The notes under the pieces are model-generated. The model worked only from the letters and a program-made list of their open reading frames with translations, did not search any database and was not told the DNA's origin. Both the position numbers and the translations under genes were made by a program. From the human T2T-CHM13v2.0 reference genome, Homo sapiens, in assembly GCF_009914755.1 (NCBI RefSeq), contig NC_060938.1: DNA of 64,000 bases. The stretch is one strand, 5' to 3'. Below are positions 23,268-32,893 of the stretch, piece by piece. The first letter of the stretch is position 1. Each line of letters begins with the position of its first letter.

Positions 23268-23419
23268 CTCTACTTGTGATGCCAAATGTGCTTTCTCCTT
23301 GTCTTTTCTCTCCATGCACCGTTTCACTTCCTCTAACTCAGATGCCATTGCGCTGAAGTTCAGCTGCACTCTCAAATCTGACATTTGCTTCTCCAGGTCC
23401 TGTTTTTCCCGCTCAACCC
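23268..23419 (-). CDS. CEP128: CEP128 internal coding exon E, 152 nt, phase 1/0
   Basis: ttttatcttttaag|GGGTTGAG...CAAGTAGAG|gtgact; (G)VEREKQDLEKQMSDLRVQLNFSAMASELEEVKRCMERKDKEKAHLASQVE. Completes the split Gly codon from exon D. Confidence 0.95.
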
Positions 23420-24036
23420 CTTAAAAGATAAAATGTAAGGCTCAAGGGTTGTTCTTTATTCACAGAAGAATGTACTTTCAAATAGTACTGAGCCCTGATG
23501 TTTCAATATTCTAGCTATCATAATCCATTTATTGACAGTTACTCAACAGACTTTGCCAGCCTGTTGTTTCAAGTTTTATAGCTTTCAAAAACATATACAT
23601 TGCTATATCATCAAATATTATTCCAGTTTGATACTAAAACTTAAAATGTTACCTGATTTCTACTGCAATTTATTTCAAGAAAATCACACACATTTTTAAA
23701 TTTTCCTCACATCTCTACACTATCTCCAAACAGTAAAAAAAAAAAAAAAATACAAAAAGAGTTTTCAACTAAGCTACTTCATCTACAAAATATTTTTTTT
23801 GCAACATAAACAACAAATGATGCTATTAAATCTCTGATTGTGTATGACCAACCAATTTACTAATCCTTACTCATCTGGAGATTATTACCTGAAATTAATA
23901 TATCATTTAACAATATAAATTGACTTAGTATTTAAATCAACATGAAATACTTGACCTGTGCTACACAGGGGACTATAATACCTTCTTCTAATATAAGGAC
24001 AAATAACAAAACTTCATCCTCAATGAGCTTATATCC

Positions 24037-24398
24037 TGATGTGGTTTGGCTCTGACCCACTCAAATCTCATCTTGAATTGTAGCTCCCGTAATTCCCACA
24101 TGTTGTGGGAGGGACCAAGTGGGAGGTAATTGAATCATGGGGGCAGCTCTTTCCATGCTGTTCTCATGATAGTGAATAAGTCCCATGAGATCTGATGGTT
24201 TTATAAAGGAGAGTTCCCCTACACAACCTCTATTCCCTGCCACCACGTAAGACATGCCTTTGCTTTTCCTTTGCCTTCCATCATGATTGTGAGGCCTCTC
24301 CAGCCACGTGGAACTGTGAGTCCATTAAACCTCTTTCCTTTATAAATTACCCAGTCTCAAGTATGTCTTTATTAGCAGTGTGAGAACAGAATAATACA
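24037..24398 (+). mobile_element. THE1B/C solo LTR
   Basis: TGATGTGGTTTGG...AATACA; TSD TATCC/CATCC; TATA-like box near 24200, ATTAAA near 24324. Confidence 0.9.
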
Positions 24399-25004
24399 CA
24401 TCCCAAGAATAGAGACAAAATATAAAGTACTCTATGGAGTCTAAAATGTCAACAACTGGAACATATACTGTCTGTCATTTTAAAACTACTGTCTTTCTAG
24501 TGGTTTCCTTTCCAGAAAAAAAAAAGGAGGCAATGAAAGAAGAAAACACTAACAAATTAAATTTATACATCATTCATAAAATACATTCCCACTTCAGAAT
24601 ATTAGTGTTCAAAATTGTACATATTAGAATGGAAGACATATGGGCATTTCAATAGGATGATAAGAGCGCTGATACATACATGTGGATTATACAGAAACAG
24701 TACAAACAGTAAAAGGGATTAGCTCTGTCTCAGTGAGGAACTAAAGTAGGAAGAACTGAGAACTAAGTCAGACTTAAAGAATGAATACAAAATTTCACCA
24801 AGCAAAGGAGAAGGAGTTGGGGTGTTTTTAGGGAAAGCACATACCATAAAGCATACAGGTACAAAACTGAATTTAACATTCAGGTAATTGCACACACAGA
24901 AGTTTCAAGTAGCTAATACATCTCATATGTTACAAGGGTGGGAGGAGGGAGTGTCAACAGAGTTTATGTGTTGCTAGGAAACTTAGAAGAATTTATCCTA
25001 CAAA

Positions 25005-25218
25005 CCAAGCATCAGCAAACATTTTCTATAAAGGATCAGATAATAAATATCTTAGCTATATGATTTCTGTCATAACTACTCAATTCAACCACTGTATTGC
25101 AAAAGTAGCCTAGACATTGCATAAATGAATGGGAGTAGCTGTGTTCCAATAAAGTCTATTTACAAAAACAGGTGGCAGTCTGGATTTGGCCCATGAGCCC
25201 TACTTTCCCTACTTCTGA
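25005..25218 (+). mobile_element. MER58A-like hAT MITE
   Basis: cagcaaacattttctataaagg...gctgtgttccaataaag...ggatttggccc. Confidence 0.7.
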
Positions 25219-25239
25219 TAGGTAACCAACCTGAAAATG

Positions 25240-25620
25240 TACATATTTATCTATTTGTAAATGTATTTGTTTATTTTATAAATATATGTATTTTATTTTA
25301 TATGTGTATATTTGTGTGCATATAACATGTCTCAATAATATGTATATATTGATACGTTTCTTGATATATACACATGGATGTAACATTAGAATGAATATAT
25401 ATTATATAAAATATGAAGGCATGTATGTATACATATATGTATACTTTATGAAACATATATATTTGATATGGAGATATATTTTGGTATGTTTACATATATA
25501 TATACTAGTAAAGATAAATATACACACACATCTATACATACATACACATGTAGTATATGTAATGAAACATTTCCCAAAAAAGTTAAAATATTTAAAACAA
25601 AAAGTATAAAATATAAACAG
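25240..25620. repeat. TA-rich low-complexity tract
   Basis: Degenerate (TA)n/(TATG)n/(CATA)n. Confidence 0.8.
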
Positions 25621-30328: not shown

Positions 30329-30403
30329 CTGATGCAAAAGTGTTTCTCGGCTGCCTTCTGATTGATTCAATAACCTTCGAGATAGCTCCAATTCCTGTTC
30401 AAG
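30329..30403 (-). CDS. CEP128: CEP128 internal coding exon C, 75 nt, phase 0/0
   Basis: ctctag|CTTGAACAG...TTGCATCAG|gtaagt; LEQELELSRRLLNQSEGSRETLLHQ. Confidence 0.95.
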
Positions 30404-31011
30404 CTAGAGTTTCAACAAAGGATAAAGAAAAATGCCCAATGGAGCAGAAGATAACTAAATTATTATGGGCACAGTTTAAAAGGAGAAAAGTGGAAAAGTT
30501 TTCAGAAGACATTTACAGCTAATATAAAAGAATAAATATCTCACTATGAACATATATCAATACTTCCATTAAAATAATGTGAATCGTATAACATAAAGTG
30601 AACCAGACCAGGCCTCAGGAAGTCTGGGATCTAGTAAGTTTCATCTCAACTGTGAGCCAGTCCAAGTCTCTCCTCCTCTGGCCTCCATTCTATCATCTCT
30701 AAAATAAGTATTTTATATTAAACAGTCTCCAAGATCCCTTCCAGTTCTAAATCTCTTTAATCTAAATTCTAAGGCAATTTTTTTCTTTAAATTAGAATAC
30801 ACAGTGTCAAATTAACTAAAGTAGAATAAAAACTGCAGGGACCCAATAACTCAAAAGTTTCATCTAATTGGTGATTTCCTACATTCCTAATATTTCTAAT
30901 ATTTATAAGACATTCCTTAAATTTTTAGATGTCTAAATTCAGAATGAGACATTTAAAATTTCCTTAATGATACTGCCATTAGATAAATATCGATAAAAAA
31001 TGTGACCAGTT

Positions 31012-31224
31012 CAGGAGATCAAGACCATCCTGGCTAACACGGTGAAACCCCATCTCTACTAAAAATACAAAAAATTAGTCAGGCATGGTGGCAGACACCC
31101 GTAATCCCAGCTACTCGGGAGGCTGAGGCAGAAGAATGGCGTGAACCTGGGAGGCAGAGCTTGCAGTGAGCCGAAATCGCGCCACTGCACTCCAGCCTGG
31201 GCAACAGAGCGAGACTCCGTCTCA
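31012..31224 (+). mobile_element. 5'-truncated AluY (intron B-C)
   Basis: Starts at CAGGAGATC; perfect 17-bp TSD AAAAAATGTGACCAGTT 30995-31011 / 31225-31241. Confidence 0.9.
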
Positions 31225-31489
31225 AAAAAATGTGACCAGTTAAGTGACTAAATATTCTACAAACTCCTAACATGCCTAGATGATTTCAAGTTGAAATATG
31301 TAATAGGATAGAACACAAGTTTCTTAACAATTTAGAGCTTATATGTGCTAGACTTGTTTGCATTCTGTAACAGTAAGATAGTTTTATAAAAATCACACAT
31401 TTATATTAAGATGCTTGTAAGTGCTTAGATTTGTAACACTTATCCTAAATTATCATTTCAGTTGAACAACTGCTATCTGTATATTAATC

Positions 31490-31860
31490 ATTTAATAACT
31501 GTACATGTGGTAGGTGTGCCTATGAAAGAACATGAGGGAGCCTTGTGGTGATAGAACAGTTCTGTATCCTGACGGTGGTAGTGGTAACAAGAATCTATAC
31601 AAGATAAAAATGGACTGAACTTCACACAAACACACACACACACACACAAATACAAATGAGTTATATATATAAAGCTGGTGAAATCTGTATAAACTAAGTA
31701 GATTGTACCAACACCAATTTCCTGGTTTTGATATTGAATGGCAATTATGCAAAATGTTACCATTGAGGCAAATTGGGTGCATGGGACCTCTCTGTGCATC
31801 TTGTTTTACAATATCCTATAAATCTATAATTATTTCAAAATATATCTTTAAATCCCAATA
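31490..31860 (+). mobile_element. Old L1M 3' end with (CA)n
   Basis: gattgtaccaacaccaatttcctggttttgatattg...gttaccattg. Confidence 0.65.
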
Positions 31861-32806
31861 TATAATTTTTTAAAAATTATACATGTGGCTCATAAAACAA
31901 ATGTCATATTAAAAAAAAGTAAAGTATAAGTGGGGATCACAGAATCCACATAAAATACTGTCCTGTTCTTCAGTCTCTATGGAGAAATAGAGTGAAGAAA
32001 TCATACTTGAAGCAAAATGACTTTGAACTCAACCAAAGCCCATATTGATCATAATCCCTGTGTAATTTCAACATCGCAACTCCCAAAGGGCAAATCTGAT
32101 GGCCTAACATACTTCGCTTACCCTAAAAGCAGCAGGGAAGCTGCCTTTACATGAGTTGGTGAAATAAAATAAAGGAGGCAATGGTAGGTAGAAAAAAGCA
32201 ATAATACGGAGTAAAGAACAGGGCAAATTTTCACTTCATCATTCATTACTTTGAGCTCATCCTTAAATCTACTTATTTGCAAATTAAGGAAGAGTTGTTT
32301 GGCCTCTGAATTCCTTTCTAACTCTAAAGTGCTAAGCTCTACGTGTTCATAGAAATGAACACACAGTTCATAAACATGAACATATGTCAAAGATCATTGA
32401 TATTTAATATAAATAGAGAATGTTTTCAGAACTGGCTGCTTACTATATCTGTCCACTATAATGAAAATGAATATAACCAAAATATTCAGTCTCCAAATGA
32501 CAGGTCTTTTCTAACCCTGCAACAAAGTCAAGTTCTTTAAATGTTTCCAACAAGAAAAAGTAAAGTTTAATTCACCTCTCAGAAAGGAGAATGGTCATAG
32601 ATGACAAGGTAGCAAACAACTTGCTTATCTGTTTTCAAGAGCAAGTCCTAGCAAGTAGAAGAGCCGTTGAACCAATTGACTCCACATAGAAAGATAAAGA
32701 ACTCACAATGTTCTAAAGGATCCTGGGGACACTTTTCAAGGCACTCAACAAATACCATTGGCCCCAAACCACTTTATTCTTTGAAAGATAACTTTTAAAA
32801 TCTTAC

Positions 32807-32893
32807 TTGATTCTTCTCAGTTTCAGTTTGTCTTAGCTTATTTTTTATTGCCCCCTCATGCTCATCTGCTTTAGCTTCTTGTTTCTTTAGTGC
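32807..32893 (-). CDS. CEP128: CEP128 internal coding exon B, 87 nt, phase 0/0
   Basis: ttccag|GCACTAAAG...AAGAATCAA|gtaaga; ALKKQEAKADEHEGAIKNKLRQTETEKNQ. Confidence 0.95.

What the first reader, a model, noticed from the sequence alone, without database searches (positions are those of the whole stretch)
23268..32893. 447-nt CEP128 exon cluster predicts a circRNA with a stop-free endless ORF (rolling-circle translation candidate)
Seen: exons B+C+D+E = 87+75+133+152 = 447 nt = 149 codons. Exon E ends in phase 0 and exon B starts in phase 0, so a back-splice E->B closes the CEP128 frame with no stop codon. Exon E has three in-frame ATGs (QMSD, SAMAS, RCMER). The cluster sits between a 22-kb intron and one over 23 kb. 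Established: long flanking introns and inverted Alus favour back-splicing, and stop-free circles of 3n length can be translated by rolling circle. From memory, unverified: a circCEP128 has been described as a miRNA sponge; I cannot confirm its exons. Inference: the circle could yield concatemeric coiled-coil protein that might co-assemble with or interfere with CEP128 at centriolar subdistal appendages.
Basis: partly seen in the sequence, partly recalled or inferred. Interest (0 to 1): 0.8.

Follow-up and report, generated by a model that had tools for sequence, protein, structure and literature searches.

The report
Known CEP128 circular RNA, stop-free frame
Four ordinary coding exons of the human centrosome gene CEP128 do join into a 447-base circular RNA with no stop codon, but the circle is already catalogued and rare, the open frame follows from exon arithmetic, and nothing shows it is translated.

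Summary
Exons of 87, 75, 133 and 152 nt on the minus strand sum to 447 nt. All have AG/GT splice sites. The circular CEP128 frame has 0 stops, against 10 and 12 in the other frames, and three in-frame ATGs, all in the last exon.

The predicted E-to-B circle exists and is already catalogued. It is hsa_circ_0032825 (Arraystar hsa_circRNA_101418), hg19 chr14:81297486-81307112, genomic length 9626, spliced length 447. It had 2 junction reads in one of the tissues profiled by Maass 2017, and circBase lists it in A549, AG04450, HUVEC and K562.

It is not the published "circCEP128" sponge. That name covers hsa_circ_0102722, which starts at the 75-nt exon and runs far downstream, and hsa_circ_0032821, which lies outside the window.

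The endless frame is not special. In this window 10 of 15 contiguous exon sets are multiples of three. Fan 2022 reports host-frame rolling-circle ORFs in 14% of full-length human circRNAs.

Neither the circle's coordinates nor its junction peptide appear in the held supplementary files of Fan 2022, whose Supplementary Data 4 lists 990 junctions with mass-spectrometry support. Translation remains untested. Overall this is ordinary, with low interest.

The parts
32807..32893 (-). CEP128 coding exon B, 87 nt. Its AG acceptor at 32893 is the back-splice acceptor of hsa_circ_0032825 (hg19 81307112).
   Evidence: sequence, AG/GT sites. (published coordinate 81307112 = window 32893 + 81,274,219).
30329..30403 (-). 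CEP128 coding exon C, 75 nt. Its acceptor at 30403 is the back-splice acceptor of the published circCEP128, hsa_circ_0102722 (hg19 81304622).
   Evidence: (coordinate in the PMC7780637 table).
28330..28462 (-). CEP128 coding exon D, 133 nt. It carries the reverse qPCR primer of Wu 2018 for circCEP128 at 28418-28438.
23268..23419 (-). CEP128 coding exon E, 152 nt. Its GT donor below 23268 is the back-splice donor of hsa_circ_0032825 (hg19 81297487; 0-based 81297486). It contains all three in-frame ATGs: 23384-23382, 23348-23346 and 23315-23313.
32875..32880 (-). The single AAGAAG hexamer in the circle. Mutating this motif reduced rolling-circle translation of circPFAS in Fan 2022.
   Evidence: circle position 14. 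(passage on circPFAS).
40514..40816 (+). Alu-like repeat in the upstream A-B intron, 7.6 kb from the exon B acceptor. It is inverted relative to the repeat at 20233-20536.
   Evidence: 83% identity over 307 nt, inverted. (orientation map).
20233..20536 (-). Alu-like repeat in the downstream intron, 2.7 kb from the exon E donor. It is the inverted partner of the repeats in introns A-B, B-C and C-D.
31012..31230 (+). Alu-like repeat in intron B-C, about 0.6 kb upstream of the exon C acceptor. It is a competing inverted partner that would favour circles starting at exon C.
29573..29857 (+). Alu-like repeat in intron C-D. It is a competing inverted partner that would favour a D-E circle.

Best explanation
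The region holds four ordinary, constitutively annotated coding exons of CEP128 that encode part of its charged, glutamine-rich, proline-free helical region.

At low frequency the spliceosome joins the donor of the 152-nt exon back to the acceptor of the 87-nt exon. The product is the already catalogued 447-nt exonic circRNA hsa_circ_0032825 (Arraystar hsa_circRNA_101418).

Its stop-free "endless" frame follows automatically from two facts: the exons are read in the host coding frame, and their lengths sum to a multiple of three. It is not a designed feature.

The circle is most likely a rare splicing by-product with no demonstrated function. If ribosomes ever initiate on it, the product would be scarce and probably degraded.

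Shown: the exon anatomy, the frame, and the circle's existence and identity. Inferred: by-product status and negligible translation.
For: Anatomy and frame.

Identity of the circle:
- One offset (window position + 81,274,219 = hg19) maps four published coordinates exactly onto exon edges.
- Window 32893 maps to 81307112 and window 23268 to 81297487. These match "CEP128 chr14(-):81297486-81307112", hsa_circRNA_101418, in the PMC4964270 table.
- They also match the row [quoted passage not shown] in Maass 2017 Supplementary file 1.
- Window 30403 maps to 81304622, hsa_circ_0102722.
- Window 54998 maps to 81329217.

Generic nature of the frame:
- 10 of 15 contiguous exon sets in the window are multiples of three.
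- Fan 2022 reports that 14% of full-length human circRNAs have host-frame rolling-circle ORFs.

No translation evidence:
- There are 0 occurrences of the coordinates or the junction peptide in the 4 held supplementary files of Fan 2022 (2.67 million characters). Their only CEP128 row is a different circle, which is not rolling-circle.

Low abundance: 2 junction reads in 1 tissue.
Against: - Two Arraystar studies using RNase R-treated RNA list this circle as differentially expressed: up 2.18-fold in radioresistant oesophageal cells and down 7.6-fold in a placental study. It can therefore reach detectable and variable levels.
- Abe 2015 (abstract) and Fan 2022 (passages) show that stop-free circles can be translated in human cells without dedicated IRES elements.
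- The circle has a G(-3)/G(+4) ATG context at 23348-23346, one AAGAAG hexamer and 14 DRACH matches including one GGACT.
- Absence from one mass-spectrometry screen is weak evidence for a rare RNA.
Confidence: 0.84

Rival explanations
1. hsa_circ_0032825 is translated by rolling circle from one of the exon E ATGs. The result is concatemers of a 149-residue CEP128 coiled-coil segment that co-assemble with or disturb CEP128 at centriolar subdistal appendages.
For: - All formal requirements are met: length a multiple of three, 0 stops, three in-frame ATGs.
- The circle exists.
- There is precedent. Fan 2022 validated reporter ladders for circPSAP, circPFAS and circABHD12. Abe 2015 showed rolling-circle translation of synthetic circles in human cells.
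- One AAGAAG hexamer is present.
Against: - No junction peptide or coordinates appear in Fan 2022's held supplementary files.
- The circle had only 2 junction reads, in 1 tissue.
- The property is shared by about 14% of circRNAs, so it does not single this circle out.
- Fan 2022 found that products of two of three tested circles were rapidly degraded by the proteasome.
- No listed paper combining CEP128 with "rolling circle" is on this topic. 5 papers hold both terms and 3 were listed: a general review and two unrelated preprints, judged by title only.
Confidence: 0.06
2. hsa_circ_0032825 acts as a non-coding regulatory RNA, as a miRNA or protein decoy. This is the role claimed for the other CEP128 circles.
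For: - It shows differential array signals in two unrelated studies.
- Sponge roles are claimed for the sibling circles hsa_circ_0102722 and hsa_circ_0032821.
Against: - No study of this specific circle was found by its coordinates or array alias. One search found 1 relevant paper and one search found 2, and all three mentions are table rows only.
- Its very low read count makes stoichiometric sponging implausible. This last point is my inference.
Confidence: 0.08

Closest known systems
hsa_circ_0032825 (Arraystar hsa_circRNA_101418), the circBase entry for CEP128
   Same: Identical. It has the same back-splice donor and acceptor (hg19 chr14:81297486-81307112), the same genomic span of 9626 and the same spliced length of 447.
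   Different: Nothing differs at the RNA level. The catalogue entries seen here say nothing about coding potential.
Published "circCEP128" miRNA sponges: hsa_circ_0102722 (chr14:81209418-81304622) and hsa_circ_0032821 (chr14:81209418-81227957)
   Same: They come from the same host gene. hsa_circ_0102722 contains exons C, D and E of this cluster, and Wu 2018's reverse primer lies in exon D.
   Different: The back-splice sites differ. hsa_circ_0102722 starts at exon C, not exon B, and extends about 88 kb beyond exon E to a distal exon outside the window. hsa_circ_0032821 lies wholly outside the window. Whether their lengths are multiples of three could not be computed from this window.
Endogenous rolling-circle-ORF circRNAs of Fan et al. 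2022 (circPSAP, circPFAS, circABHD12)
   Same: All are exonic circles made of host coding exons, with length a multiple of three, no stop in the host frame and an internal start codon. The AAGAAG hexamer that mattered in circPFAS occurs once here.
   Different: Those circles have junction-spanning mass spectra and reporter ladders. This one has neither in the data seen.
Synthetic infinite-ORF circular RNAs (Abe et al. 2015). The rolling-translated EGFR from circ-EGFR (Liu et al. 2021) is recalled only; that paper is not held.
   Same: The principle is the same: a stop-free circle whose length is a multiple of three can be read round and round (abstract).
   Different: Those are engineered, or abundant in tumours, and shown experimentally. 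This is a rare natural circle with no protein evidence.

Membership tests
Exonic circRNA made by back-splicing | Canonical AG acceptor at the 5' exon and GT donor at the 3' exon of the circle | tested here: met
   exon B is preceded by ...CCAG and exon E is followed by GTGA...
Exonic circRNA made by back-splicing | Back-splice junction reads in RNA-seq at exactly these sites | tested here: met
   Maass 2017 Supplementary file 1 lists chr14:81297486-81307112 as hsa_circ_0032825 with 2 circular reads in LCL, and circBase samples A549, Ag04450, Huvec and K562. The coordinates equal the window exon edges under the single offset verified.
Exonic circRNA made by back-splicing | Resistance to RNase R | tested here: inconclusive
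   The array signal was obtained from RNase R-treated RNA in PMC4964270. No individual RNase R or Sanger validation of this circle was seen. Nothing in the passages I read names it among the 9 circRNAs that paper validated by qPCR.
Exonic circRNA made by back-splicing | Inverted repeats in the flanking introns | tested here: met
   of 53 BLAST matches between the two flanking introns, 29 are inverted. The nearest full pair is 40514-40816 with 20233-20536 (83% over 307 nt). The feature is not specific, because closer inverted partners lie in introns B-C and C-D.
Rolling-circle-ORF (rcORF) circRNA, as defined by sequence in Fan 2022 | No stop codon in one frame of the concatenated circle, ORF of at least 20 aa, and an NTG start | tested here: met
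   0 stops in frame 0, 149 codons per turn and three ATGs. The definition was read (methods passage).
Rolling-circle-translated circRNA (experimentally supported) | A junction-spanning peptide or ribosome footprint | tested here: not met
   0 occurrences of the coordinates or the junction peptide in the 4 held supplementary files of Fan 2022. The only CEP128 row is chr14:81025622-81362134, marked not_rc. The one held riboCIRC supplement has no gene lists. Some cells of the stored files are cut, so absence is not absolute.
Rolling-circle-translated circRNA (experimentally supported) | A concatemer ladder from a tagged circle | not testable with these tools
   This needs a bench experiment.
Rolling-circle-translated circRNA (experimentally supported) | An element that recruits ribosomes internally (IRES-like hexamer or m6A site) | tested here: inconclusive
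   one AAGAAG, no AATTCA, and 14 DRACH matches including one GGACT. Only the two hexamers named in the passages were scanned, not Fan's full list. Motif matches alone prove nothing.
Published circCEP128 miRNA sponge | Same back-splice junction as hsa_circ_0102722 or hsa_circ_0032821 | tested here: not met
   those circles are chr14:81209418-81304622 and chr14:81209418-81227957. The B-E circle is chr14:81297486-81307112.

The most novel reading that the evidence does not exclude
hsa_circ_0032825 is translated round and round in some cell types, for example those where the arrays show it regulated. This yields concatemers of a 149-residue CEP128 coiled-coil segment that co-assemble with full-length CEP128 and alter subdistal-appendage or ciliary function. 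That would make it a natural dominant-negative encoded by a circle.
Probability: 0.03. Interest if true: 0.55.

Novelty: already known. Interest (0 to 1): 0.15.

Why it matters
If the circle were translated, it would add one more endogenous example to a class that already has validated members. It would also suggest a way for a centrosomal scaffold gene to make a self-interfering product.

As things stand, the finding mainly shows two things. First, a back-splice can be guessed correctly from exon and intron layout. Second, "stop-free circle of 3n length" is too common to flag a candidate on its own: 10 of 15 exon sets in this window, and 14% of human circRNAs according to Fan 2022.

The useful correction for anyone working on "circCEP128" is that at least five distinct CEP128 circles overlap this window in print or in supplements. 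Their back-splice acceptors are at exon A, exon B, exon C and further upstream. The name in the cancer literature does not refer to the B-E circle.

Tried and rejected
- Mapping to hg19. I first considered that hg19 81304622 (the end of hsa_circ_0102722) was the edge of exon A or exon B. An offset guessed from my recalled hg19 start of TSHR pointed instead to exon C. I then predicted the other exon edges and searched for them. Three independent published coordinates matched exactly, so the mapping no longer rests on recall.
- Searches that found nothing useful. hg38 coordinate 80838278 gave 0 papers. The hg38 forms of the B-E coordinates gave only an unrelated Drosophila paper. The hg19 number 81302681 hit only a crystallography paper, and 81612646 hit three unrelated cancer papers.
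- Supplements that were uninformative. PMC5798954 has 1 held file with 0 hits. riboCIRC has 1 held file with 0 hits. Salzman 2013 has 8 held files with only gene-level CEP128 rows of 2-5 circular reads and no coordinates.
- Primers. PMC10198730 has no word beginning with CEP128. Wu 2018's forward primer and the primers of PMC7687013 and PMC8020055 are not in the window, as expected for distal exons.
- Calls that gave no result. The rtEGFR paper is not held.
No protein-family, structure or complex tools were run, because the spliced protein cannot be handed over as one reference and the question did not need them.
- Heptad check. A crude periodicity check gave its strongest signal at period 3.5 (1.44), but period 2.0 gave 1.18. 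It is weak and I do not lean on it.
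Full report
**Observation**

I read the four exons on the minus strand and joined them by script from the window file.
- The lengths are 87, 75, 133 and 152 nt, 447 in all, and every exon has an AG acceptor and a GT donor.
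- With the upstream 117-nt exon A as reference, exons A to D all start on a codon boundary. Exon E starts one base into a codon and ends on a boundary.
- Read as a circle, the CEP128 frame has no stop in its 149 codons. The other two frames have 10 and 12 stops.
- Of the six ATGs in the circle, three are in the open frame, all in exon E. The other three open ORFs of 4, 6 and 26 codons.
- The flanking introns are 21,988 nt and more than 23,267 nt.

**Is it more than chance?**

No. A coding frame is stop-free by definition, so the only condition is that the exon lengths sum to a multiple of three.
- Exons A, B and C are each multiples of three, and D plus E make 285.
- As a result, 10 of the 15 contiguous exon sets in this window would give an endless frame, and 7 of those 10 also contain an in-frame ATG.
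- Genome-wide, Fan et al. 2022 (PMC9242994; passages read) report that 14% of full-length human circRNAs carry a host-frame rolling-circle ORF. They give a ratio of ordinary to rolling-circle ORFs of about 3.4.

**Does the circle exist?**

Yes, and it is already catalogued.

The review PMC7780637 gives hsa_circ_0102722 as chr14:81209418-81304622 in hg19. To place the window on hg19 I first used a recalled TSHR coordinate, which suggested that 81304622 is the upper edge of exon C. From that offset (window position + 81,274,219) I predicted the hg19 edges of the other exons and searched for the numbers. The results were:
- PMC4964270 lists "hsa_circRNA_101418, CEP128, chr14(-):81297486-81307112". 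These are exactly the predicted donor of exon E and acceptor of exon B.
- PMC7687013 lists a circle chr14:81209418-81329217, whose end is exactly the predicted edge of exon A.
- Maass et al. 2017 (PMC5660143, Supplementary file 1) has the row chr14:81297486-81307112, minus strand, hsa_circ_0032825. It gives genomic length 9626, spliced length 447, 2 circular reads, 0 and 0 linear reads, sample LCL only, and circBase samples A549, Ag04450, Huvec and K562.

The 9626-base span equals 32893 - 23268 + 1 in the window. The mapping therefore rests on four published coordinates, not on recall.

**Expression**

- Arraystar junction arrays on RNase R-treated RNA list the circle as up 2.18-fold in radioresistant KYSE-150R cells.
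- A placental study lists it as down 7.6-fold. I saw only the table row, not the comparison.
- I saw no individual validation of this circle.
- The sequencing evidence is thin: 2 reads in one tissue.
- Salzman 2013's supplementary tables give only gene-level CEP128 rows with 2, 3 and 5 circular reads.

**Relation to the published circCEP128**

The name is used for other molecules.
- Wu 2018 (PMC6069875) calls hsa_circ_0102722 circCEP128. Their reverse primer lies in exon D at window 28418-28438, and their forward primer is not in the window.
- By its coordinates that circle starts at exon C and runs to a distal exon about 88 kb beyond exon E.
- PMC8020055 uses the name for hsa_circ_0032821, chr14:81209418-81227957. 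This lies outside the window.
- The acceptors of exons A, B and C are thus each used by at least one catalogued circle. An even larger circle, chr14:81025622-81362134, appears in Fan 2022's data.

**Flanking repeats**

- BLAST of the upstream intron against the downstream intron gave 53 matches, 29 inverted and 24 direct.
- A scan with one Alu-like copy found 20 matches in the window.
- The copies nearest the exon E donor (21561-21665, partial, and 20233-20536) are in minus orientation.
- Plus-oriented copies lie in intron C-D (29573-29857), intron B-C (31012-31230) and intron A-B (40514-40816, 7.6 kb from the exon B acceptor).
- Inverted pairing is therefore available for the B-E circle. It is equally or better available for the C-E and D-E circles. 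The argument is permissive, not specific.

**Translation**

- The circle meets Fan 2022's sequence definition of a rolling-circle ORF (methods passage).
- Its middle ATG has G at -3 and G at +4. There is one AAGAAG hexamer, the motif whose mutation reduced circPFAS translation. There are also 14 DRACH matches.
- Abe 2015 (abstract) showed that synthetic stop-free circles are translated in human cells without special elements. Competence is therefore plausible.
- Fan 2022 searched junction peptides of circBase circles against about 23 million spectra and reported 990 junctions with support. In the four supplementary files held (2.67 million characters), the B-E coordinates and its junction peptide occur 0 times.
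- The single CEP128 row there is the very large circle, marked not rolling-circle and supported by one 8-residue peptide.
- Five papers hold both "CEP128" and "rolling circle". The three listed were a general review and two unrelated preprints, judged by title only.
- Some stored cells are cut and bioRxiv supplements are closed, so absence is not proof.

Given the rarity of the circle, I put meaningful translation at about 6%.

**Verdict**

The sequence facts are right and the back-splice prediction was correct. However, the circle is already in circBase, the endless frame is arithmetic shared by many circles, the recalled sponge is a different circle, and there is no sign of translation. This is an ordinary feature with a small speculative tail.

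Noticed in passing
window 22277-22330 (minus strand): The 54-nt exon annotated for other CEP128 transcripts has no AG before it (the upstream bases end ...TTTA). It has a GT donor and ends in ATG. Read after exon E in frame it has three stops. It looks like an alternative first exon whose last three bases are a start codon, which would give an N-terminally shortened isoform that begins just after the circle-forming exons.
   Followed up: partly
window 54882-54998, 32807-32893, 30329-30403: Three consecutive exons (117, 87 and 75 nt) are each multiples of three. Skipping or circularising any of them keeps the frame. This explains why 10 of 15 exon sets are stop-free circles.
   Followed up: yes
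window 50505-51673 versus 2901-5515: Long inverted matches (520-630 nt at about 80% identity), probably fragments of a larger repeat family such as L1. They lie across the two flanking introns, far from the splice sites.
   Followed up: no
hg19 chr14:81209418 (outside the window, downstream of exon E): One distal donor is shared by three published CEP128 circles whose acceptors differ: 81227957, 81304622 (exon C) and 81329217 (exon A). It appears to be the dominant back-splice donor of the gene.
   Followed up: partly
window 14555-15732 (+): The HMGN2P2 processed pseudogene sits inside the long intron downstream of exon E. This comes from the annotation only and I did not examine it.
   Followed up: no
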